From Dromiciops gliroides (lineage: Eukaryota), in assembly GCF_019393635.1 (NCBI RefSeq), contig NC_057861.1:633012827-633076826 (forward strand): a stretch of DNA of 64,000 nt. Direction: 5' to 3'. Under the pieces are notes generated by a model that saw nothing but the letters and a program-made list of their open reading frames with translations, did not search any database and was not told where the DNA came from. The position numbers and the translations under genes were made by a program. The stretch's first letter is position 1, and each line of letters opens with the position of its first letter. Below, piece by piece: positions 6,401-63,713 of the stretch.

Positions 6401-7358
6401 GAGGAGATAAATAGAAAGAAAGATATATACAGATAGAAATATTGATAGAGATGATATAGATATATTGTCCTTGCAACTTCAATCTAACCCAGTGATCAAA
6501 TTGTCTTTAAAAAAAAAGCTTAAAAATTAAAATTGATCCCAGACAAAACTGTCACATAAATGTAACCAATTCTTTAGGGGTCTATAGGCAAGTCACCTCT
6601 TTACCGGCTACTCCCTGAGACTCTACTCAGGGCCCAGATTCAGGATCTTATAGATTAGCCTAACTCCTACCCCACTAGAAACTTCCTTGTCTTATATACA
6701 TACAGTCATTAAAATATTTAGATATCATATTATAGAAAAGCAAACGTTTTACTTAGATTAGACAGGAAGACAATATTGTTTTTAAAAGTATTAGGCACAG
6801 ATAACACAAACCACAGAAAATGTAATCACCTCCCAAGGTCAAGGTTCTTTTTTGTCTCACTCCCACTCAGGTACTCAAATGACTGGGTTGCTGAGAGTCC
6901 AGAGTCTTCTGATCCAGGGTCCTATAGCTTCAGCAACTTTAATCTAGGGTAAATGGAGCAGATGGGAGTAGGCCTTGCCCATCATTGGGGGGACATGGAC
7001 ATCTTCACAGCCTGCCAGAACATCCCCCCTATGTAGAAGGTAAAGTCTGTGCAGGGGTCTGCAAGAGCACCAGCAGCACTGAGTGTGCACACCAGGCATC
7101 AGCAGGGATAATGAAGCTTGGTCAATAGTAATATCCAACATCCAACCTTGGCAGGAGAGGAGGAGAATTCTCAAAGCCTCCAAAGCCCTGCTCAGCCCAA
7201 GTCTGGCAGTACACGCTCCCCGACTTGCTGCACCCATCATCCTCTCACCCTTTTTCCTTCATTATTACTTGAGAAAATCCATTCCTGTACATGCCACCAA
7301 TCAGAGTCCTCACTGGTTTTTCATCATCAGTTGCTAAGCTCCTGATAAATGGCTTCCA

Positions 7359-7364
<6 letters not shown>

Positions 7365-7420
<56 letters not shown>
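7365..7420. repeat. (TC)n dinucleotide microsatellite
   Basis: ~28 TC units. Confidence 0.95.
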
Positions 7421-7422
<2 letters not shown>

Positions 7423-7470
7423 AGCCTTTTCAACAAGGCTCAGTTTTCATGTCAAAAAAGTGTCATTTTA

Positions 7471-7622
7471 GGGCAGCTAGGTGGCGCAGTAGATAGAGCA
7501 CCGGCCCTGGAGTCAGGAGTACCTGGGTTCAAATCCGACCTCAGACACTTAACACTTACCAGCTGTGTGACCCTGGGCAAGTCACTTAACCCCAATTGCC
7601 TCACTAAAAAAAAAAAAAAAAA
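7471..7622 (+). mobile_element. Marsupial tRNA-derived SINE (SINE1/Mon1-type) with poly-A; TSD aaaagtgtcattt
   Basis: GGGCAGCTAGGTGGCGCAGTAGATAGAGCACCGGCCCTGGAGTCAGGAG...GGGCAAGTCACTTAACCCCAATTGCC + A15; direct repeats on both flanks. Confidence 0.9.
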
Positions 7623-7961
7623 AGTGTCATTTACCTCCATGTGATAACAGTTATACTATTAATAATATCTATAGACTGAGAAAACACATAATACCAAAAA
7701 ACCCCTACTATACATTCTATAATGCTTTTAAATGAATTTGATTAATCGTAATATCTGCAGGGATAGAAACTGTACTTGTGACTGCTCTACCAATTTATGT
7801 CAGCAACTTCTCTACAACTCAGAGACTTAGAAAGCCGTCTAAACTACTGAGTGGTCCAGTGACCTACCTAGAGTCATAGAGATAGCATATGTCAGAATCA
7901 GGAATCAAACTCAGGTCTGGGAGGCTCCCAATCCAGCTTTCTATGGGCTGCAATGCACTAC

Positions 7962-49015: not shown

Positions 49016-50646
49016 CATATTACTAATTCTTAAGGCAATGCAAAACAATCAGAGGACATGTGTATGCAGTGTTGTGGTTATCTGCATTTTCTCCCACCAA
49101 ACAGGAATTTGAGAACATTACCCAACTCTCTTTATCCCTGTCCTACCCTGCCATGGTATGCAGGCATTAATAGTAACATTCAGAAATTGGTCTGGGCACA
49201 AGTTCTATCCAGGTTTGCAGTTAGAGATACCAAGTCCAACAACTTTTTCCATGACTTACCTACACAGCAAAGCCTTCTACAACAATGTGACTTTGCAGAG
49301 GAAACATTTAACCCTAATGCATGAAGTACTGAAATAGGGGAAGAATTCAGAGAACATCAAGTTGGGGTGGGGGGGTACATATAAAGTAGAAAAGGGCATG
49401 TTTAATTTCCTCTGACAAAATGGAGAGAAAAAATAACCATAGCCCAGTTAACTTAATGTCTCTTCCTGGATAGTAAGACTATTCAGAGACACTCTAAATT
49501 CTAGTCTTGGCCTCATGAGGCTTATCAGCCCACCCTCGAAATGTAAGAGTAGTTAGTAAAGGTAAAGTTAATAAAGCTTTCTTAAAGTACTTTACATATT
49601 TTTTTATGTGATCCTTATTACAATCCAATGAAGTAGACAGGGCAGATGGTATTATTCCCATTTTATAAATGAGGAAACTGAGGCTCCTAGAAAGTGTAGT
49701 GACATATCAGAAGTCATGTAGTTAAGTGCTAGAGCTTTTGGTTGAAGTGCTGTTCTCACTTCTAGTAGCAAGCAGCACTGGACCTGACCCTAATTCCCTA
49801 AAATGCCTTGCTTTGAACTGCCCTGCAACCTTTGATTGCTGTTGTAAGCACCAGTTGACCCTTTAGCTAGCCTTTTTACCAAATACTTAAGGTCAGTGGA
49901 TTGTACTAGAGCACTGGGCTCAAATAGTCCTAAGGGCTTCCTATCTAAGACCAGCCCTGTTGTACTGAGGATGAAGGAGCTGTCAGTCAGTCCCCAGTGC
50001 TGAATGAGCATGAACTGGGTACAGAATCTCTGGCCTAGGCATTGTAAAACTAGACAAAAAGTAATAAGTAGTCCCTGCCCATGAGGAATTAAGGACATGT
50101 GACAAAGCAAAAACTTGCTATCCCAGTAGTAATGTAAGATGCTATTTTTCCTTGTTTTCCCAAGCGAGTTCTTTCTAAAACCCCACATTGCTTTCCCACT
50201 TAAAAAACAAAACAAAACCTCAATGTAACCCCTATTGTCAACAACTTAAGGTCCAAATGACTTAGCTGGAATTTCTGCTCAGGGTGGCTTACTTGATGCA
50301 TTGCTTCACAGGGCCTTTGTACTGCTCTTTCCAAGCATCAAGTCCTACAATCACAAAACTGTCCCTAACCATCCCAGCTTTTTATAATCCTACCCATGCC
50401 TTAATTCCTATAGTGTTTGTGCCATTCATTGTGGCACAACATGTTTTGTCTGGGGCTTGAGGTTACCTTTTTGTGGCAGTCAGGATTCAAACTACAGTCT
50501 TCAGAGTCCCAATCTAGTACCTTTGACACTAGAAGTTGTTGTACCTACTGAATTGTGGGAAGATGGGGAAGTGAGCTATGGGAGGTAGTTAGTTGTTACA
50601 TGATGAAGGAGAAGGAAGGTAGAAGTGAATTTATTTATCTTCTTAG

Positions 50647-50815
50647 CCCCCTGAAACAACTAAACACTCTAGAACCAGCTGTGCAAGAGCGCCTGCTAAA
50701 CCTGGATCGAATTCTAGACGCCCGAGGGAGCCAAGGAACTTCAATCTTGAGTACACCAAGAAGAGAGCGGACAGCTTTAGAAAAGGCTTTGAAAGAAAAG
50801 GACTCAGAGATTCAG
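50647..50815 (+). CDS. KIF22: KIF22 coding exon 9 (SPLKQLNTLEPAVQERLLNLDRILDARGSQGTSILSTPRRERTALEKALKEKDSEIQ)
   Basis: ORF 50555..50848; matches the remembered human [42 protein letters not shown]...EKDLEIE. Confidence 0.88.
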
Positions 50816-51074
50816 GTACAGACTGGAGACAATTCAAAGCTGGGTTGATGTTTTCCTCACCTCTGTCATGTGTTTCCTTCCTACCTTCTTGCTAGCTCCC
50901 TCATTCTAGACTTCATTTAACTCAGACTCCATTTCCCCACCCTCCAACCAGGATCTTTTGGTCTTATCTCTTCTTGAGACATCCTATTCTAGACCCTTGG
51001 GAAACAAATCTAGGTTAGGCCCTCAGGTGTTTGATACTGACTAGATCACCCTTTTCTTTCACTTATTCCCACAG

Positions 51075-51234
51075 AGGCTGAAGGAAAAGTATAAAGAGCT
51101 GGAGGCCAACAGACTGAGTCAGAGGCACAAGGAATTGGAGGAAGAGAATGGCTCCCTGGCCCCACCCTGTCCCTTTCCCTCCCAAACAGTACCCAACATC
51201 AAACCCCTGAATAGGGTTGTACCCTTTCAGCTAA
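51075..51234 (+). CDS. KIF22: KIF22 coding exon 10 (coiled-coil: RLKEKYKELEANRLSQRHKELEEENGSLAPPCPFPSQTVPNIKPLNRVVPFQL-)
   Basis: Acceptor cccacag|; donor CTAA|GTAAGG; the junction with the next exon gives PFQLIQEQ, matching human PLQLIQEQ. Confidence 0.8.
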
Positions 51235-51355
51235 GTAAGGAAAGGGGAAAGGGGAAAGGGGTGGGGGACTGGAAGTTCTAGATGGGGCAAAGGAAACTAA
51301 AGGGGAGATTGGTGACTGCTTTGACACCATTATTGTCTCCAATCCCCACCTTTAG

Positions 51356-51420
51356 TTCAGGAGCAGACAACATCCCAAAGCAAGACCCAGGTCCTGCAGA
51401 AAGAAAACCGGAAGAGAAAG
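51356..51420 (+). CDS. KIF22: KIF22 coding exon 11 (IQEQTTSQSKTQVLQKENRKRK; basic NLS-like tail)
   Basis: Acceptor ccacctttag|; donor AAG|GTAAGA; aligns to the remembered human [23 protein letters not shown]. Confidence 0.8.
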
Positions 51421-52005
51421 GTAAGACAACCTGAAGGCTTGGATGCTTGGGCCTGTAAGGTGGAGGTTGTGGGGAGGGGGAAAATGAGAAGCCAAAACAC
51501 CTTATTTAGCAAACCATTATCATTCAACATTTATGGAGCTTCTGAGGATATGAGTTAGTCCCCAACTCTAGGAATTTATAGCTAGTTAGTGGGGGGTGAA
51601 AAATATAAACACATGAAAAATTAAACACTAGATGAGGCCTCAGATAAAAGAGATGTCAGGAGGTGGCACGGAAATAATTGCCAAATGGGAGGTCCTCTCA
51701 AGTGCCATGGGAGCTCGGAGAAGGGGGAAAGCTGAGTGGGCTAGAACAGCCAGCTCAGAAAGGTTTCATGGAGGGTGGTACTTGAAGGATGGGTTGATTG
51801 AGGATAGGTCTGAGTCTGGGGTGGGAATGGATAGGGTGTGTTCTGGCAGTAATCAGCCGGGTGCCAGAGAATAGCGGGATAGAGATGAGGGGAAGGGAAG
51901 ACTGGAGCTGGCCAGCCCCTCCACGTGGTGCTGGCTGCCTACCTGCAGCCCGCAGGGAGCCCCTGGAGATCCCCCTCATAGCCTTCTCTCTCCGTCCGGC
52001 TACAG

Positions 52006-52227
52006 CCCGAGCCGCTCCGCGGGCAGCAGGAGGAGCAGGCTGAGGGGCTCCGCACCACCCTGGCGCTGCTGCAGGTGCCCCCAGACCTCCTGGCCGAGAG
52101 CCGCAGGAAGATCCTGGGCTTGCTGAACACGGGCTCGGCCAAGGAGCTTCGCAGGCTGCAGCGCATTGGGGAGAAGAAAGCCCAGCTCATCGTGGGCTGG
52201 CGGGAGCTGCACGGCCCCTTTGCGGAG
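52006..52227 (+). CDS. KIF22: KIF22 coding exon 12 (helix-hairpin-helix DNA-binding region: ...[47 protein letters not shown])
   Basis: ORF 52075..52308; near-identical to the remembered human [47 protein letters not shown]. Confidence 0.9.
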
Positions 52228-52328
52228 GTGAGGCGGGGGCTGGCCCGGGAGGAGGAGGAGGAGGAGGAGGAGGGCGGCGGGTGGCGAGCCTTCCCCAAGG
52301 CAGCGTGATGCGCCTTTCTCCCCCGCAG

Positions 52329-52388
52329 GTGGAGGACCTGGGGCTGGTGGAGGGCATCTCCGACAAGCAGGTGGCCACCTTCCTGAAG
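52329..52388 (+). CDS. KIF22: KIF22 coding exon 13 (VEDLGLVEGISDKQVATFLK)
   Basis: Matches the remembered human [20 protein letters not shown]; acceptor ccccgcag|, donor AAG|GTACGG. Confidence 0.88.
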
Positions 52389-52468
52389 GTACGGAGGTGG
52401 GGGAGGGGGCCGGGGCGGGCAGGGCCGGGCCGATCGCGGCTCTAATTCCCTTCCCTCTCCTTTTCCAG

Positions 52469-52886: not shown

Positions 52887-53515
52887 CTCCTGGGGGGAGG
52901 GACGGTGGCCGAAACACGGCAAAATACATTTGTGAGGCCTGGAGGGCGACGACCGTTAGGCGCGTGCCTAGGGTTTTCTCCGCCCCTCCCATCGATACGC
53001 GCGCGCCCAAGCTCCTCGTTCAGCCAAGGGAGAGACATTATGCGCGTGCGCGCGGAATAACGGCCGCTGGCGGAGAAAGGAGGGGGGGGACTCGGTAGAG
53101 GGAGGGGGAGCCGCCCCATCCCCCGCGTGCCCACCACCTGCACCATCCTAGGCCAATCAGCGCTTGTCTTGAGGGTCTCGCGCTAACGGAGGCTGGGGCA
53201 GCTGGGTGCCTCCCCTCCCCCTCCCCCTCTCGCCCGAGTCCCTCTCTCTCTCTTCCCCCTCCCCCCCTGGACTCGCGCGCCCGCGCTCGCGCTTGCCCGA
53301 GACTCCGTGTGTGTGTCCTCGCGCCCCCCTCCCGCCCGCTCGCCCGCCCTCCCCGCGCGCAGTGTGTGCTCCGCTCCCCCCCCCATCCTCCTCCTCCCAT
53401 CCCTCCCGCCCCGCGCGCCTCCCGCCCGCCCTCCTCCTCCCTCTGGTCCCCCCTCCCCCCACCTCCTCCTCCCGCCCCGGGGTGAGCGCGAGCCGCCTCC
53501 CTCCCTCCCTCCGCC

Positions 53516-53551
53516 ATGGATCCAGGCAACTGGAGCAGCTTCATCTTCCAG
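53516..53551 (+). CDS. MAZ: Candidate alternative MAZ 5' coding mini-exon (MDPGNWSSFIFQ) with donor CAG|GTAACA; phase 0, compatible with the MAZ exon 2 acceptor
   Basis: ATG in strong Kozak context (cgccATGG), 12 codons, then a perfect GTAACA donor; the 54808 acceptor is phase 0. Confidence 0.45.
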
Positions 53552-54484
53552 GTAACAACCCCCCCCTCCCCCCACCCCCCCCACGCCTTCTCCTCCCCCC
53601 CCACCCCATCTCCCTCCCTACACCCCCCTCCCTCCCTTCCGTTCCACCCCCCCCTCCGCGCGCCCGGTGCGCGCGCAGCTGCCCCCCTCCTTCCCTCCCT
53701 CCCTCCCCGAGGCGCAGAGAGGGAGCGCGCGCGGCGGGGGCAGAGGCTTCTCCCTCGCGCTCCCCCCTCCCCCCACCCACCCCGGGGATTCCAACCGCCG
53801 CAGCGTACCGGGCGCCCAGCCCGCCGCCTCGCGCCGCTTCCCGCGTCGTCTCGCCCTCCATTCCCGCTCCCTTCCCGGGTCCTGCCCCTCGGCCCCGCCC
53901 CCCCCTCGGCTCCTGCACCAGCTCTTGCTCCCCACCTGAGGGGACTTTTTCCCCCTCCCGCCTAGGGGGCGTTGCCTCTCTCCGCCTCAGCCTTCCGAGC
54001 GGGTGGGGTGGCAGTTGGTCCTCTCGCCTTCTGGGAGGGGATGTGGATGTGACTGGCCCCCAGCCCCCACTGCCCGGCGCGCTCCCTCAACAATGAGGGG
54101 AGGCGGCCTCCCCAGGTCAAAAACGATTGTTCTCTTGCAGTGAGGAGAGTGGTGTGCCATTGAGGGGGGTCGGGGGGCTGACCCCACAACCCCGGGCTTC
54201 CTGCCACCACCACCCGGCTTCGGCTGGCTTGGCTCTCCCTTCTTCCGGAGCACATTGCCCTTTTGGCCACTTTGGAGGCAATTTGCGGGGCCGTCTCCCC
54301 CCGAGGGGACCTGACCTTTCCCCCCAATTAAGGGGACGGGCACTTTCATGAGGATTACGCTCTTTTTTCCAGTTTTATTGTTTATATGACACTTTTAATC
54401 CAGGGAGCTCAAGAAGCTGTTTTAAGGGGTCGTTACCCCAAGTACTCCTGCCCTCTCTTCCTAACACCTTACTGGCTGGAGGCC

Positions 54485-54676
54485 ATGTTTCCTGTTTTCC
54501 CCTGCACCCTCCTGGCCCCCCCATTCCCTGTATTGGGATTGGATTCCAGGGGGGTTGGCAATCTAATGAACTCTTTTCCCCCACCTCAGGGTCACGCCCA
54601 GAATCCCCTGCAGGTTGGGGCTGAGCTTCAGTCCCGGTTCTTTGCATCCCAGGGCTGCAACCAGAGTCCATTCCAG
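54485..54676 (+). CDS. MAZ: MAZ (MYC-associated zinc finger) coding exon 1 (MFPVFPCTLLAPPFPVLGLDSRGVGNLMNSFPPPQGHAQNPLQVGAELQSRFFASQGCNQSPFQ)
   Basis: In-frame within ORF 54386..54994; almost identical to the remembered human MAZ N-terminus; donor CAG|GTGAGT. Confidence 0.9.
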
Positions 54677-54807: not shown

Positions 54808-55649
54808 GCTGCCCCAGCCCCCCCACCGACTCCTCAGGCCCCATCTGCTGAGCCCCTCCAGGTTGACCTCCTCCCTGTCCTCGCTGCAGCCCAGGAATCT
54901 GCTGCTGTGGCAGCAGCGGCCGCAGCAGCGGCCGCAGCTGCAGCTGCCCCCCCAGCCACTGCCACAGCTTCCACAGTGGACACAGCAGCCCTGAAGCAAC
55001 CCCCTGCACCGCCTCCACCACCCCCTCCGACCTCTGCACCAGCTCCTGAAGCTGCACCTCCAGCTACAATTGCTGCTGCTACTGCCACAGCTGCTGCTGC
55101 CCCAACCTCCACAGCTGTTGTAGCTCCTGTAGCTACTGCTCTGGAGAAGAAATCAAAGAGCAAAGGGCCATATATCTGTGCCCTCTGTGCCAAGGAGTTT
55201 AAGAACGGCTATAATCTTCGACGGCATGAAGCCATCCATACGGGTGCCAAGGCTGGGCGGGCTGGCCCAGGTGCTATGAGGATGCCCACCATGGTGCCCC
55301 TGAGTCTCCTGAGTGTGCCAGCAACACTGGGCGGAGCTGGTGGGGGTGGGGGTGAAGGGGGTGCTGGGGGTGGAGGGGCTGGAGTTGGTGGAGGCGGCGT
55401 GGTAACCACCACAGCCTCTGGGAAGCGGATCCGGAAGAACCACGCATGTGAGATGTGCGGAAAGGCCTTCCGTGATGTCTACCACCTGAACCGGCACAAG
55501 CTGTCACACTCTGATGAGAAGCCGTACCAGTGCCCTGTCTGTCAGCAGCGCTTCAAGCGCAAGGACCGCATGAGCTACCATGTGCGCTCACATGACGGCG
55601 CTGTGCACAAGCCCTACAACTGCTCCCACTGTGGCAAGAGCTTTTCCCG
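54808..55649 (+). CDS. MAZ: MAZ coding exon 2 (poly-Ala/Pro-rich region plus C2H2 zinc fingers 1-4: YICALCAKEF..HACEMCGKAF..YQCPVCQQRF..YNCSHCGKSFSR-)
   Basis: ORF 54730..55782; C2H2 finger signatures and the human-like EKKSKSKGPYICALCAKEFKNGYNLRRHEAIHTG; donor CG|GTGTGC gives SFSR|PDHL continuity with exon 3. Confidence 0.88.
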
Positions 55650-55988: not shown

Positions 55989-56052
55989 GCCAGACCACCT
56001 CAACAGCCACGTCAGACAGGTGCACTCAACAGAACGGCCCTTCAAATGTGCG
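55989..56052 (+). CDS. MAZ: MAZ coding exon 3 (-PDHLNSHVRQVHSTERPFKCA)
   Basis: Acceptor tcccccag|; matches the remembered human PDHLNSHVRQVHSTERPFKC; donor GCG|GTATGG. Confidence 0.85.
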
Positions 56053-56335
56053 GTATGGAGACCTTGATGTACTGATACTTTTTTCATTATTTAAACCCCT
56101 TTTTTATCTATCTAGACTCAAGCCTCTCAGATCTCATTCTCTCAGAATTCTTGTTTCTAGTTGGCCTTTAATTCAATTCTTATTCCTTCTTAAAGGCTTA
56201 ATCTTTTCATTCCTATTTGTCTATGGCTCTAAGATCCCATACTCCACATTTCTGGGGCTCTGACTTTATTCCCCCATCCCCAATACCCCTCCCCTCTAAC
56301 AACTCTTAATTTCTCCTCTGACTTCTCCATCCCAG

Positions 56336-56507
56336 ACATGTGAAGCAGCATTTGCTACCAAGGACCGACTTCGAGCACATACAGTGAGGCATGAAGAAAA
56401 GGTGCCATGCCACGTATGTGGCAAGATGCTGAGCGCAGCCTACATCTCTGACCACATGAAGGTGCACAGCCAGGGGCCTCACCACGTCTGCGAACTCTGC
56501 AACAAAG
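56336..56507 (+). CDS. MAZ: MAZ coding exon 4 (TCEAAFATKDRLRAHTVRHEEKVPCHVCGKMLSAAYISDHMKVHSQGPHHVCELCNKG-)
   Basis: Acceptor atcccag|; near-identical to the remembered human zinc fingers 5-6; donor AAAG|GTAGGG (phase 1). Confidence 0.9.
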
Positions 56508-57590
56508 GTAGGGAGGGAAGACACTGGAAGGGACTAGGGGAGAAATAGCAAAGGGCTCACTACACTGTTGAATTCCATCACAAAGGTAGGACTGTAGCAG
56601 AGGGGAATGGTTTCCTGATGTATGGTTCAAAGGATCAGTTAGGTTCCCCTTGGATAAAAAGAGTGTAGCTACATCTGGGTAAACACAGAAGCTTAATAAG
56701 ACCTAAAGTTAGCAGAACCATATTTATAAGGGAGAAAGCAGTTTACTTCTGAGAAGTGAAGCTCCCATCTTCTAAGTCTTAGTGCAGAAAAGGTGGCTGA
56801 GACTCAGTTACCTCTGGGAAAGAAGTAGCCAAGTAGCAAAAACTTCATGGGAAATTGAGAACTGGTTTCCCTCATTGTTGAGAAACAGAGGACACAACTT
56901 CTTCTGCAAGAGGGATACAATCCACTGAGAACAAGTTGACTGGATATAATGGGCCCATCAGAGTTTGGGGAAGAATATGCAACAACTAGTACTTGTGGAA
57001 GGACACACCAGGCAGAGAATACTAAACCCTTTGGGTGACAGTAACTCTTAACTGGAATGGGGGGTTGGGGAGTAACAGATGCAAAACCTGCATCTGAGAG
57101 ATATTATGGGTAGCTCTGGGGAGGAATACTTGAATAGAACAAGCTTCCTTTAAATGAAGTTTCCTCAGGGAACCAAATCCTTAGGGTTTGGGGGGGTTGG
57201 GGGACACAGCCGTCTCTGGGGAAGGATACATTCACTTAGGATTCCTAATTACTCAGGGCATTTATTCTATCTATCTCCTGCCACCTCTGGAGAGGGTTTT
57301 GCCAGTTGGGAAGAATCAGCTCTATGGGTCCTGGAGAGAGAGGTCACAGCTATCTCTGGGAAGGAATATCTTGCCAAATAGACAAAGTTCTAAGTTTGGG
57401 GAATGAAAAGATAATACCACCTCTGGGCAGAAGACCACAACCTGAATAGAAAAATATTTCCCAGGTTGTTGGGTATAGCTGACCTAACTATTACTGGGGA
57501 AGTGAGTTCCCAAACTAGGAGAAAATCCCCGTCTCCGGGGTCTCCACTTAGCTGATCCCTGTCCCTGTCCCCATCCCGGTCACCCCGTAG

Positions 57591-57808
57591 GCTTCACTAC
57601 GGCGGCATACCTGCGCGTCCATGCGGTGAAGGACCACGGGCTCCAGGCCCCCCGGCCCGACCGGCTCCTGTGCAAGCTCTGCAGTGTGCACTGCAAGACC
57701 CCCACCCAGCTGGCTGGCCACATGCAGACCCACCTCGGGGGGGCCGCACCCCCTGTCCCTGGAGACGCCCCCCAGCCACAGCCACCACCGCCGCAGCCCA
57801 CCTGCTGA
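57591..57808 (+). CDS. MAZ: MAZ coding exon 5, canonical terminal (-FTTAAYLRVHAVKDHGLQAPRPDRLLCKLCSVHCKTPTQLAGHMQTHLGGAAPPVPGDAPQPQPPPPQPTC*)
   Basis: ORF 57626..57808; acceptor caccccgtag|; the remembered human ends ...GDAPQPQPTC*. Confidence 0.88.
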
Positions 57809-58231
57809 GGGAAACCCCTGCACCCACCAGGCAAGGCTCGGCGCACGGCTGGTGGGGCATGGGGGGTTGAGGGGTGGAAGGGGATCAGAGGACCCCATGG
57901 GTAGGATAGGGGTATTTAGGAAGGCCCGAGGGCAGGATAGGTTACTAGGGAATATAGGCTAGGGAGGATACTTGGGGTAGGGAGGGCCTTTGAGGAGAAC
58001 TTTTGAAGTGTCTCCAAGGGAAAGAAGACAGGCTGGAAAGAGAAAACCTGAACCTCTGGAGAGGAAGCAGGAAATGTGCAACGGCTGTGTCCCAGGGGAG
58101 GGAATGGTAGAAGAAACAGCTTCCCAGGCAGAGAGGGGAAGCAGCTACCAGGGAGAAAGATCTTGCCACAGGTTCCACAATAACTCTTTCTCTCTCTTTT
58201 CCCCTTCTCTTCCCCTCCCTATTCGATGCAG

Positions 58232-58392
58232 GTACAGGTGAGGTTTGTCCTATGGCAGCAGCAGCATCAGCAGCGGCGGCGGCGGCAGCAGCAGCAGCAG
58301 TTGCAGCAGCTACCCCCACAGCTGTGGGCTCCCTTTCTGGGGCAGAGGGTGTCCCTGTGAGCTCTCAGCCACTTCCCTCACAGCCCTGGTGA
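58232..58392 (+). CDS. MAZ: Candidate alternative MAZ 3' terminal exon (-TGEVCPMAAAASAAAAAAAAAAVAAATPTAVGSLSGAEGVPVSSQPLPSQPW*), joined from exon 4 and skipping exon 5
   Basis: Acceptor gatgcag| in phase 1, matching the exon 4 donor; poly-Ala tail and C-terminus resemble a human MAZ splice isoform as I recall it; the minus-strand ORF 57945..58319 is its mirror image. Confidence 0.5.
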
Positions 58393-60700: not shown

Positions 60701-61815
60701 GGCACAAGAATGCGGGGTCTCTGCGGGTGGGAGGGAGGTACCGAGGCTCTGGATGGGGCTTGAGAAGCTGGGGGGGGGGGGAGGATACTTGCGAAACCAA
60801 GATGTTAAAGGGAATGTAAAGGCACGGAGATCTGAGGGGGAAAGGCAGCAGGGAGGGTGACGCTCCCCTGGGAGAAGGGATTGGAGACAGATAAGGAAGG
60901 GATTCCCCCTTCTCTAGGGGAGGGGGCTCCATATGCACGCAGTAAGAAAACCACCAGTCTGAGCTGGGGGGGGGGGGGAGTGTGAGGAAGGGAGGAAGAA
61001 GGGATGGAGAGAGTTACCAAACGAGGGAGATTGGAGCCAGTTTGAGGGGAAATGGAGGAAGGAGGGGAGAGCGCAGGGTGACATAGAAAGGAAGAATGTC
61101 CATCTGCCTGGGAGTGGGCTCATCGGCGTGCCTGTGAGACTGTATTTGCTAGGCAAGGTGGTGAGTGACTGCCTGCCTGACTGCCTGCCTCCCTGCCTGC
61201 CTCCTTATGCCTCAGCGTCTGGATCTGTCTATGCGTGTCTGCATCTCTGTCCATGGCTGAGTTTCTCTGGATGATACAGGGAAGGGGGGACCCTCAAGAA
61301 AGTGAGGGTGGGTGGAGAGCTGAAGGAAGGCTAGCTTTCTGCTCCTGGTACCCAAAGGGTTAACCCAGGTCTCTCCAGAACTATAGACAGCTGAGTGAAA
61401 GAGAACCTCACTTTCTAAGGCACCCCATTGCCTTCCTCATTTCCAGCATCGCAGCACCACCTCCCCACCTTAAACCCCACCCCACCCCCACTTCACTGCT
61501 GTCCCACCTGGAGGGAAGGAAAGTCTCAGCTCTTTCTATTACTTACCCAATGCTGCTAACCTACCCTCTAGCCCAGAGGAGAAAGCGGGCATCTCTTGAG
61601 GTCCTTCCCTCTGAGTCTGTTAACACTTAGCCACTACCTTGGCCCTCTTCAGAGTCAGAGGTGCCTCTGTTCAGAGCCAGCTGAGGCTCCTGGGCTCCAT
61701 ATTCTATACTTTCCCTTCCCCAGACCCAGCTGTGTCTCCTCTTATTCCAGGATATCCTGTTGCTGCTCTCTCCCCTTCCCCCCACTATCCTATCCCTCCC
61801 CTATCCTATCTCAAG

Positions 61816-62895
61816 ATGGCATCCAGTGGCTCTGAAGGGACAGAGATGAAGGGGGATGAGGAGGGTACCTCAGCCCAGGGCGAAGGGACTGGAACAACTC
61901 CTGGAGCAGAGACTACCCTTCCCCAGACTCCAGCTGGGGCCCAGGACATCACAGAGGCCCCCCAAATGGGTTCAGATTCCACCAGACCCTCCGATAAAGG
62001 CCCAGAAGTGGGGACATCTGAACGGGCAATAAAAACTTCAGAGGCACTAGAAGGGACCCCAAACCCAGCCAAGGACACAGACTCCATACCAGACCCAGGA
62101 AGTTCACAGACAGAACAGACCCCTGCAGCAGACTCACATTCTCAGCTAACACCACAATACTACAAAGAATCTGTCCCAGCTCCAGGAGGGAGCAAAGAGT
62201 CTGCCCCAGAAGAGAGTAAAAAGCCAGCCCCAGAAGAGAGCAAAAAGCCAGCCCCAGAAGGGAGCAAAGAGCCAGCCCCAGAAGGGAGCAAAGAGCCAGC
62301 CCCAGAAGAGAGCAAAAAGCCAGCCCCAGAAGAGAGCAAAAAGCCAGCCCCAGAAGGAAGCAAAGCGCCTACCCCAGTCCTAGAAGTAAACAAAGAACCA
62401 TCTCCAACCACAGGCCCAGAGGCAGAACAGGGGACTAAGCAGGAAGCAGTGTCTGACCTCAGGCCTGTCCCCCAGCCTACATCTCCTGTCCAAAAGGCAA
62501 TGCCCATCTCCACAACCCCTGAGGACCTAACAGAGGACCTGATGGAGAAACAAGAGAATGGAGCTGTAGTGCCAATGAAGGCTGGAGAAGGGGACAAGAG
62601 CACAATCTCTCAGCCCCACTCTCCTCCTGCACCCAAGGGCCCTCCAGCCAATGGGGCACCCCCAAAGGTGCTACAGCAGTTGGTGGATGAGGAGAGAGGA
62701 ATTGGGGGGCATGGTACAAAGTCTGGCTCCCCCCGAGGCAGCCTGAGCCGCCAGCCCAGCTCCCTGCTGGGGGGGCCAGGAGGTGAGGGGGGTGAAGGGG
62801 TCCCAAAGCCACGGGACTACATCATCATCGCCATCCTTTCCTGCTTCTGCCCAATGTGGCCTGTCAACATTGTGGCTTTTGCTTATGCCATCATG
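61816..62895 (+). CDS. PRRT2: PRRT2 (proline-rich transmembrane protein 2) major coding exon ([17 protein letters not shown] ... [29 protein letters not shown])
   Basis: ORF 61639..62973; C-terminal part near-identical to the remembered human PRRT2 ([40 protein letters not shown]...[29 protein letters not shown]); donor ATG|GTGAGT. Confidence 0.9.
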
Positions 62896-63326
62896 GTGAG
62901 TTTTTGGGAATCCCTACCTTCCCTTTGCCCTAGCTCCCTTATACTACTGGTCAAGTGCTGTTCATGTGCCTGACTTGGAAACCCCAGGTATGAGGGGGAT
63001 GGGAATTGGGGAGGGGGGAGGGGGTTTGGGACACGTCCTCATGGACCCTGAGGACCACATCTCCAAAAAATCCTAGGGCTCTTCCTTTAGATTTCTGTCC
63101 ACTTATTCTCCTTTGATCTCATCTCTCCCTGGCCCTTGTATCCCAGAAACTTTCTCCAAGACCCTCTCCTTCCCAGGGAGGAGAAAAGGAAGAGTCTTTG
63201 ACCTTCTATTGACAATATGCCATCTTTTTATCCTCCTTCCCTCTCCTCTATATACATTCTGACTGAAACTCCGGCTGGATGATGATGGTCACCTGACCCA
63301 CACCCCCTTGTTGCTGACTACCCCAG

Positions 63327-63459
63327 TCTCGGAACAGTCTACAGCAGGGTGATGTGGATGGAGCTCAGCGCTTGGGACGGGTGGCCAAGCTGCTGAGTAT
63401 CGTGGCATTGGTTGGAGGGGTCCTCATCATCATTGCTTCCTGTATCATCAACTTTGGAT
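63327..63459 (+). CDS. PRRT2: PRRT2 coding exon ([44 protein letters not shown]; second TM helix)
   Basis: Acceptor ccccag|; essentially identical to the remembered human [44 protein letters not shown]; donor T|GTGAGT. Confidence 0.88.
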
Positions 63460-63713
63460 GTGAGTATGAGCATGGGTTGGTTGGGGAGTGGGGGTGGGGA
63501 TGGGGTAGGGGGTTGGGTGAATGGTGGGTGTTTATGGTAGAACCTGGAAGTTTCTAGTTAGATAACTGAATGGGTGGAGATGGGTTGTGTTTCTTTAAAG
63601 AGCTGTGGCTCTGTGGAAATAGAACTAGATTTTGAAGAAAAGTGGAACTGGTTGTTAGTGGAGGCCTAGCATCAACTAACCTCATGTACCTGCTCTCTCT
63701 GTCTGTTTCTCCC

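What the first reader, a model, noticed from the sequence alone, without database searches (positions are those of the whole stretch)
53516..53551. Possible conserved alternative first coding exon of MAZ (MDPGNWSSFIFQ) embedded in the C-rich promoter island
A 12-codon ORF in strong Kozak context (cgccATGG) ends exactly at a consensus donor CAG|GTAACA. Its phase 0 matches the phase-0 acceptor of MAZ exon 2 at 54808. It would replace the canonical N-terminal 64 aa. Human MAZ (also called SAF) has described splice variants; I recall, with uncertainty, an N-terminally distinct SAF-3 isoform of this kind. Such a short exon is easily missed by annotation.
Basis: partly seen in the sequence, partly recalled or inferred. 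Interest (0 to 1): 0.6.

Follow-up and report, generated by a model that had tools for sequence, protein, structure and literature searches.

The report
Known SAF-3/MAZ-3 first exon of MAZ

Summary
ATG 53516 to CAG 53551 encodes MDPGNWSSFIFQ in a strong Kozak context and is followed by gtaaca. It is under protein-level selection: the exon and its phase-0 boundary are kept from shark to marsupial, and 7 of 8 variable sites in a six-species alignment are third codon positions (p≈0.003), while the flanks become unalignable.

It is not new. The human SAF-3 primer CCGCCATGGATCCCAGCAACTGGAGCAGC matches the window in 27 of 29 bases. Tammar wallaby RefSeq isoform X4 starts with the identical peptide.

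The proposed junction is probably wrong. The human SAF-3 junction primer (CATCTTCCAG|GGTCAC), the human isoform lengths (454 vs 477 aa), and the wallaby, Peromyscus, alligator, turtle and lizard models all join the exon to an acceptor inside canonical exon 1 (window 54590, FIFQ|GHAQNPLQ). This replaces 35 residues, not 64. Direct joining to exon 2 (54808) is in frame and cannot be excluded as a minor form.

One extra point emerged. MD(x)xW(S/T)xF(I/L)FQ is the usual N-terminus of MAZ in amphibians, fish, sharks and hagfish, and of the paralog VEZF1. The "alternative" exon is therefore the ancestral one. The MFPVFPC start was found only in mammals.

Novelty: already known. Interest is low.

The parts
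53039..53515 (+). Conserved upstream promoter / 5' leader block of the SAF-3-type transcript (CpG island, CCAAT-like ggccaatcag at ~53153, many CCCTCCC tracts). The TSS is not determined.
   Evidence: Window 53039-53583 aligns to jaguarundi L003 6760-7284 at 78.7% over 559 bp. CpG o/e is ~0.8, and 17 of the window's 64 GGGAGGG/CCCTCCC motifs lie in 53001-54000. Apart from a 6-codon ORF at 53040, no ATG precedes 53516.
53516..53551 (+). Coding part of the upstream alternative (ancestral) first exon of MAZ: MDPGNWSSFIFQ, phase 0 at its 3' end.
   Evidence: sequence. Identical peptide at the start of wallaby isoform X4, P0008. Orthologous exons found in wallaby, cat, alligator, crane, frog and shark DNA. 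Codon-position bias p=0.0026. The human SAF-3 primer matches.
53552..53557 (+). 5' splice site gtaaca (CAG|GTAACA).
   Evidence: GT and the exon boundary are conserved: gtaaca (wallaby, cat), gtaacg (alligator), gtaccg (crane), gtaatg (frog), gtgaga (shark).
53552..54589 (+). Inferred intron of the SAF-3-type transcript (1038 nt). Its last 105 nt (54485-54589) also encode residues 1-35 of the canonical isoform.
   Evidence: Inferred from wallaby X4 (FIFQ|GHAQ), the human junction primer CATCTTCCAG|GGTCAC and the isoform lengths. Usage in this species was not observed.
54485..54589 (+). Canonical-isoform-specific N-terminal coding segment (MFPVFPCTLL...NSFPPPQ, 35 aa). It contains the polypyrimidine tract and AG (ctcttttcccccacctcag) of the internal acceptor.
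   Evidence: There is no counterpart in lizard or alligator, where in-frame stops lie just upstream of the homologous acceptor.
54590..54676 (+). Segment shared by both isoforms (GHAQNPLQVGAELQSRFFASQGCNQSPFQ). It is a separate cassette exon in reptiles and ends at CAG|gtgagt.
   Evidence: Reptile proteins read MDPSNWSSFIFQ|SHTQNPLQ....
54808..55649 (+). MAZ exon 2 (AAPAPPPTPQ... through the first zinc fingers).
   Evidence: A direct join from the alternative exon is in frame (424 aa). That architecture was found only in species where no cassette was found (crane, amphibians, fish).
55989..58392 (+). Remaining MAZ coding exons: 55989-56052, 56336-56507, the optional MAZ-2/SAF-2-type exon 57591-57808, and the last exon 58232-58392.
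   Evidence: The gene model translates to a 476-aa MAZ, 98% identical to wallaby MAZ.

Best explanation
The ORF is the coding part of the upstream first exon of the MAZ gene in a marsupial, orthologous to the exon that gives human SAF-3/MAZ-3. Transcription from an upstream start site in the CpG island would produce an mRNA whose first AUG is 53516. The exon is spliced at 53551|53552, most probably to the AG at 54588-54589 inside canonical exon 1. The product would be a 453-aa MAZ in which MDPGNWSSFIFQ replaces the first 35 residues (MFPVFPC...PPPQ) of the 476-aa canonical protein. The zinc-finger DNA-binding part is unchanged. The isoforms therefore differ only in the N-terminal regulatory region and in which promoter drives them.

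Shown here: the sequence features, codon-level purifying selection, conservation of the exon boundary from shark to marsupial, an identical annotated isoform in wallaby, and the match to published human SAF-3 primers.

Inferred: that this species uses the exon and the 54590 acceptor, where the TSS lies, and any functional difference. For human SAF-3 the literature reports stronger transactivation and expression during inflammation.
For: Sequence.

Human literature. SAF-3 starts ATG GAT CCC at a BamHI site. The SAF-3 forward primer is CCGCCATGGATCCCAGCAACTGGAGCAGC, against window ccgccATGGATCCAGGCAACTGGAGCAGC. The junction primer is CATCTTCCAG|GGTCAC. Amplicons are 271 bp (SAF-1) and 208 bp (SAF-3) with a shared reverse primer. 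MAZ-3 is 454 aa against 477 aa for MAZ-1, with a distinct short N-terminus. MAZ-3 arises from a different TSS.

Annotation. Wallaby X4 reads MDPGNWSSFIFQ|GHAQNPLQ, and Peromyscus X3 reads MDPSNWGSFIFQ|GHAQ. Alligator X1-X3, turtles, tuatara and lizards read MDP(S/G)NWSSFIFQ|SH(A/T)QNPL.

DNA. Orthologous exons with the same phase-0 boundary occur in six other species. Changes are mostly synonymous and flanks are diverged. Synteny is KIF22-MAZ-PRRT2.
Against: No transcript, CAGE or peptide data exist for the species of the window, so use of the exon and choice of acceptor rest on homology. The donor has a non-consensus +5 C. Human MAZ-3 mRNA is reported as very low in TCGA gastric samples, so the isoform may be minor. 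The exact window protein models (453, 424 and 476 aa) are not in the protein collection. The window's species was not identified; it is ~84% identical to wallaby over 10 kb.
Confidence: 0.9

Rival explanations
1. The exon splices directly from 53551 to exon 2 at 54808, skipping all of canonical exon 1, and gives a 424-aa protein in which 64 residues are replaced.
For: The join is in frame, and the 54808 acceptor has a strong polypyrimidine tract. The same architecture (N-terminal exon joined directly to the exon-2 equivalent) is the annotated form in crane, amphibians, fish and sharks.
Against: In those species no cassette was found: there is no tblastn match in the crane locus, and it is absent from the amphibian and fish proteins. 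Every mammalian and reptilian model recovered with this N-terminus includes GHAQ/SHTQNPLQ... after FIFQ. The human junction primer and the isoform lengths fit only the internal acceptor. No mammalian protein with FIFQ|AAPAPP was seen, but the search shows cluster representatives only, so a minor isoform could be hidden.
Confidence: 0.08
2. The ATG at 53516 acts only as an upstream ORF or leader element of long 5'UTR transcripts. Unspliced, it opens a 149-codon ORF ending at 53965. It would modulate translation of canonical MAZ rather than encode a protein N-terminus.
For: The unspliced ORF exists, and the region is part of the promoter/5' leader.
Against: Conservation stops exactly at the donor. 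Downstream sequence is 25-33% identical in crane and frog, and the read-through peptide is low-complexity proline-rich sequence. Selection acts on the 12 codons at the amino-acid level. SAF-3 mRNA has been amplified by RT-PCR in human cells (primers and the original cDNA are from Ray et al. 2009, which I could not read), and MAZ-3 has been expressed as a protein from constructs.
Confidence: 0.02
3. It is a chance ORF plus a chance GT in a C-rich CpG island, with no function.
For: The bare pattern is common: 14 instances on the + strand of this window.
Against: Deep conservation of the peptide, codon phase and exon boundary across vertebrates.
Confidence: 0.005

Closest known systems
Human SAF-3 / MAZ-3 (Ray et al. 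2009, FEBS J 276:4276, PMID 19583771; 454-aa isoform described in PMC5622404)
   Same: Same position upstream of the canonical MAZ start in the GC-rich promoter. Same start ATG GAT CC- with a BamHI site. Peptide MDP(S/G)NWSSFIFQ. Same length relation to the canonical isoform: 23 aa shorter (454 vs 477 in human, 453 vs 476 here). Junction ...CATCTTCCAG|GGTCAC.
   Different: One residue differs (Gly4 here, Ser4 in human, judged from the primer sequence). Nothing is known here about expression or activity. The original paper could not be read, so functional statements come from papers that cite it.
Notamacropus eugenii MAZ isoform X4 (XP_072455283.1, P0008)
   Same: The exon is nucleotide-identical and the first 60 residues inspected are identical. 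It joins to the internal acceptor. The gene order KIF22-MAZ-PRRT2 is the same.
   Different: It is a Gnomon prediction from another marsupial. The window is only ~84% identical to wallaby over the 10-kb locus, and the 468-aa X4 differs from the 453-aa window model elsewhere in the protein.
Standard N-terminus of non-mammalian MAZ and of the paralog VEZF1
   Same: The motif M(D/E)xxW(S/T/G)x(F/Y)(I/L)(F/Y)(Q/P) is encoded by a short first coding exon that ends in phase 0. Examples: frog MDANWSSFIFQ|gtaatg; shark MEAAWSSFIFP|gtgaga; fish MDAAWSNFLFQ; hagfish MDANWTSYLYQ; VEZF1-like MEATWGAFIFQ and MEASWTAFLFQ.
   Different: In those genes it is the only or main N-terminus, and it joins directly to the exon-2 equivalent. 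In mammals it competes with a downstream start (MFPVFPC...) and is followed by a cassette found here only in amniotes.

Membership tests
SAF-3/MAZ-3-type alternative first coding exon of MAZ | Lies within the MAZ locus, upstream of the canonical MFPVFPC start, on the same strand | tested here: met
   The exon at 53516-53551 lies 934 nt upstream of the canonical ATG at 54485. The full MAZ gene model was recovered downstream. Synteny is KIF22-MAZ-PRRT2.
SAF-3/MAZ-3-type alternative first coding exon of MAZ | Encodes MDP(S/G)NWSSFIFQ starting at ATG GAT CC- (BamHI site) | tested here: met
   The window reads ccgccATGGATCCAGGCAACTGGAGCAGC. The human SAF-3 primer reads CCGCCATGGATCCCAGCAACTGGAGCAGC, so 27 of 29 bases match.
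SAF-3/MAZ-3-type alternative first coding exon of MAZ | Functional 5' splice site directly after the Gln codon, phase 0 | tested here: met
   GT is present and the boundary is conserved in wallaby, cat, alligator, crane, frog and shark. Actual splicing in this species was not observed.
SAF-3/MAZ-3-type alternative first coding exon of MAZ | Spliced to the acceptor inside canonical exon 1 (FIFQ|GHAQNPLQ), replacing 35 residues | tested here: inconclusive
   The acceptor ctcttttcccccacctcag|GGTCAC is present at 54590 in phase 0. Wallaby X4, Peromyscus X3 and the human junction primer use it. No RNA data exist for the window's species.
SAF-3/MAZ-3-type alternative first coding exon of MAZ | Transcribed from a separate upstream promoter/TSS | not testable with these tools
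   Only indirect support: a promoter block conserved with cat at 78.7% over 559 bp, and a CpG island. Human reporter data are in PMC6340948.
SAF-3/MAZ-3-type alternative first coding exon of MAZ | Isoform has altered (higher) transactivation and is induced in inflammation | not testable with these tools
   Reported for human only, as cited in PMC6340948.

The most novel reading that the evidence does not exclude
The so-called alternative exon is the ancestral first coding exon of the MAZ/VEZF1 family, present at least since the vertebrate ancestor. The evidence suggests a stepwise history. The GHAQNPLQ...SPFQ segment arose as a cassette exon in amniotes. In the mammalian lineage, before the marsupial-eutherian split, the intron sequence just upstream of that cassette gained an ATG and its own promoter, giving the 'canonical' MFPVFPC N-terminus. 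As a result, 105 nt now serve both as the 3' end of the SAF-3 intron (polypyrimidine tract and acceptor) and as coding sequence of MAZ-1. I found no paper stating this, although it is implicit in public annotations.
Probability: 0.8. Interest if true: 0.3.

Novelty: already known. Interest (0 to 1): 0.12.

Why it matters
For annotating this marsupial genome, it means MAZ should carry a SAF-3/MAZ-3-type transcript with the junction 53551->54590. For MAZ biology, the modest added value is the evolutionary reading. The little-studied, low-abundance human MAZ-3 N-terminus is the deeply conserved one, shared with VEZF1. The N-terminus of the well-studied MAZ-1 was found only in mammals. This suggests that the conserved 11-12-residue motif has a function, such as a partner-binding or stability motif, that studies on MAZ-1 alone would miss.

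Tried and rejected
1. A 72-aa N-terminal query against the protein collection returned only 11 candidates. It missed the identical wallaby protein, so the word index has poor recall for short queries. It did give one useful hit, Podarcis MDPSNWSSFIFQQSHTQ.... The full-length query worked.

2. The look-up of encoding contigs failed for isoforms that are not the longest product (P0008, P0007, P0047). It worked with the longest isoforms taken from the cluster lists.

3. The tamarin locus L002 looks like a degraded or odd copy, with a stop inside the exon-1 homolog and no alternative exon, so I did not use it. In the lizard locus L001 the alternative exon was not found, either because of an N gap at 7463-7562 or because it lies further upstream. 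In the cat locus an N gap at 7291-7690 hides canonical exon 1.

4. Exact look-up of the three window protein models found nothing, so the species stays unidentified.

5. The original SAF-3 paper is not held.

6. Literature searches for the peptide string and for MAZ/VEZF1 N-terminal homology found nothing relevant.

7. ORFs on the minus strand and in other frames across 53300-53800 are low-complexity products of the GC-rich sequence, and I ignored them.

Full report
**1. Observation**

Window 53516-53551 reads ATG GAT CCA GGC AAC TGG AGC AGC TTC ATC TTC CAG (MDPGNWSSFIFQ). It is preceded by tccgcc and followed by gtaaca.
- The Kozak context is strong, with G at -3 and G at +4.
- An in-frame stop lies 33 nt upstream.
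- Apart from a 6-codon ORF at 53040, no other ATG occurs in the ~480 nt before it. Any transcript starting in that interval would meet this AUG first.
- The donor matches MAG|GTRAGT at 7 of 9 positions, with C at +5 and A at +6. It is good but not 'consensus'.
- Left unspliced, the frame runs on for 149 codons of proline-rich low-complexity sequence.

The canonical MAZ start (MFPVFPCTLL...) is at 54485. Canonical exon 1 ends at 54676 (CAG|gtgagt) and exon 2 starts at 54808. The full gene model gives a 476-aa MAZ.

**2. Is it more than chance?**

The bare pattern is not. ATG followed by 10-60 open codons ending at AG|GTRA occurs 14 times on the + strand of the window, although only once in the 1.5 kb before the canonical ATG. 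Conservation settles the question. I recovered the orthologous exon from genomic DNA of six other species:

| Species | Locus and position | Difference from the window |
|---|---|---|
| Tammar wallaby | L004 4001-4036 | nucleotide-identical |
| Jaguarundi | L003 7221-7256 | 1 synonymous |
| Alligator | L005 3001-3036 | 2 synonymous |
| Whooping crane | L006 3001-3036 | 5 synonymous, 1 non-synonymous codon |
| Frog *Hymenochirus* | L007 2001-2033 | 4 synonymous, 1 non-synonymous, one codon shorter |
| Zebra shark | L008 5473-5505 | not tallied |

- In all of them the exon ends at the same codon, directly followed by GT.
- In crane and frog the 36 nt on either side are only 25-33% identical to the window.
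- In the six-species alignment (all of the above except the shark), 7 of 8 variable sites are third codon positions (binomial p=0.0026).
- The peptide itself is therefore under purifying selection, not just the promoter DNA.

**3. What it is**

The literature describes exactly this exon in human.

PMC6340948 states the following:
- The SAF-3 start codon lies at a BamHI site (ATG GAT CCC).
- The SAF-3 primer of Ray et al. 2009 is CCGCCATGGATCCCAGCAACTGGAGCAGC. The window has ccgccATGGATCCAGGCAACTGGAGCAGC, a 27 of 29 match. The two differences change Ser4 to Gly and one synonymous Pro codon.

PMC5622404 describes MAZ-3 as 454 aa against 477 aa for MAZ-1, with a short N-terminal sequence found in no other isoform.

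PMC12102611 attributes the distinct N-terminus of MAZ-3 to a different transcription start site. It finds MAZ-3 mRNA at very low abundance in gastric tumours.

In the protein collection, tammar wallaby MAZ isoform X4 (XP_072455283.1) starts MDPGNWSSFIFQGHAQNPLQ..., identical to the window. Gene order is KIF22-MAZ-PRRT2, as in wallaby and cat. The window comes from a marsupial that is not the wallaby: it is ~84% identical over the 10-kb locus, and its exact proteins are not in the collection.

**4. Where it splices**

That join is in frame and would give 424 aa, but the comparative evidence points elsewhere.
- A strong acceptor, ctcttttcccccacctcag|GGTCAC, lies inside canonical exon 1 at 54590, also in phase 0. 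Using it gives 453 aa.
- That is 23 residues fewer than canonical, which is exactly the human difference (454 vs 477).
- The human SAF-3 junction primer CATCTTCCAG|GGTCAC reads IFQ|GH.
- The published amplicons (271 vs 208 bp with a shared reverse primer in exon 2) differ by ~63 bp. My own arithmetic predicts ~66 bp for the internal acceptor and ~153 bp for an exon-2 join.
- Wallaby X4 and Peromyscus X3 read FIFQ|GHAQNPLQ. Alligator X1-X3, turtles, tuatara and lizards read FIFQ|SH(A/T)QNPLQ.

I therefore take 53551->54590 as the likely junction. The exon-2 join cannot be excluded as a minor form, because only cluster representatives and a few cluster members could be inspected.

**5. Mechanism**

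This is alternative promoter use combined with an alternative first exon. An upstream TSS in the CpG island gives an mRNA whose first AUG is 53516. Splicing removes 53552-54589. The product has the same zinc fingers as canonical MAZ, with MDPGNWSSFIFQ in place of the first 35 residues.
- A promoter block, 53039-53583, is 78.7% identical to cat. It is rich in CCCTCCC tracts.
- Sp1 and MAZ itself are reported to repress this promoter in human.
- Shown here: the sequence anatomy, the conservation and the orthology.
- Inferred: use in this species, the TSS, and any functional consequence. In human, SAF-3 is reported as the stronger activator and as expressed during inflammation, as cited.

**6. 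Beyond the finding**

Among the 126 relatives inspected, the motif M(D/E)xxW(S/T/G)x(F/Y)(I/L)(F/Y)(Q/P) is the N-terminus of MAZ in several groups:
- amphibians: MDANW(S/T)SFIFQ|TPPPPP...
- ray-finned fish: MDAAWSNFLFQ
- sharks: MEAAWSSFIFP and MDATWSSFIFQ
- hagfish: MDANWTSYLYQ
- VEZF1-like proteins: MEATWGAFIFQ, and coelacanth MEASWTAFLFQ

MFPVFPC was seen only in mammals, including both marsupials. In lizard and alligator DNA the segment homologous to GHAQNPLQ...SPFQ is a separate cassette exon. It is preceded by an acceptor with in-frame stops just upstream, so no MFPVFPC-type extension exists there. No cassette was found in the crane locus, and it is absent from the amphibian and fish proteins.

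The simplest reading has three steps:
1. The 'alternative' exon is ancestral.
2. The cassette is an amniote addition.
3. The canonical mammalian start is a later extension of that cassette into the former intron.

I found no paper stating this.

**7. Verdict**

The feature is already known in human and already annotated in a related marsupial. Novelty: already known. Interest: low.

Noticed in passing
window 54386-54484: An in-frame ATG lies 33 codons upstream of the canonical start (MTLLIQGAQEAVLRGRYPKYSCPLFLTPYWLEA-MFPV...). Wallaby Gnomon isoforms X1-X3 start at the equivalent ATG. However, 6 of these 33 residues differ between window and wallaby, while the following 64 are identical, and the Kozak context is weak (gtttatATGA). 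It is probably 5'UTR rather than coding.
   Followed up: partly
window 54485-54589: This stretch has a dual use. These 105 nt encode residues 1-35 of canonical MAZ and also carry the polypyrimidine tract, a likely branch site (ctaat at ~54564) and the AG of the SAF-3-type intron. In lizard and alligator the homologous stretch is plain intron with in-frame stops.
   Followed up: partly
window 57591-57808: The optional MAZ-2/SAF-2-type exon is present (GFTTAAYLRVHAVKDHG...PQPTC*, two extra zinc fingers). It lies in its own GC-rich patch and aligns to alligator and crane at ~79-81%.
   Followed up: partly
window 53001-54000: 17 of the window's 64 GGGAGGG/CCCTCCC motifs fall in this 1 kb, almost all as CCCTCCC on the + strand, with a strong negative GC skew. 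These are Sp1/MAZ-type sites, consistent with the reported repression of the human promoter by Sp1 and MAZ itself.
   Followed up: no
window 49404-52400 and 61508-63496: The flanking genes are the 3' end of KIF22 (kinesin) upstream and PRRT2 (CD225 domain) downstream. I inferred this from colinear alignment with the annotated wallaby locus L004. The arrangement matches the cat locus L003.
   Followed up: partly
window 56050-56340 (exon 3/4 junction): The fifth zinc finger reads FKCATCEAAF in the window model. From memory, human has FKCEKCEAAF. The C-x2-C spacing is kept.
   Followed up: no
protein P0075 (Eptatretus burgeri, UniRef A0A8C4QXE7): A hagfish 'MAZ' model joins MEGNWNGYMYQ directly to a BTB domain (PF00651) followed by MAZ-like zinc fingers. 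This resembles PATZ1/MAZR and hints that this N-terminal exon may predate loss of the BTB domain in MAZ/VEZF1. It could equally be a fused gene model.
   Followed up: no
L006 (Grus americana locus) and P0020 (ostrich): The cassette GHAQ/SHAQNPLQ...SPFQ gave no tblastn match in the gap-free crane locus, yet it is present in the ostrich protein. It may have been lost or have diverged strongly in some birds.
   Followed up: partly
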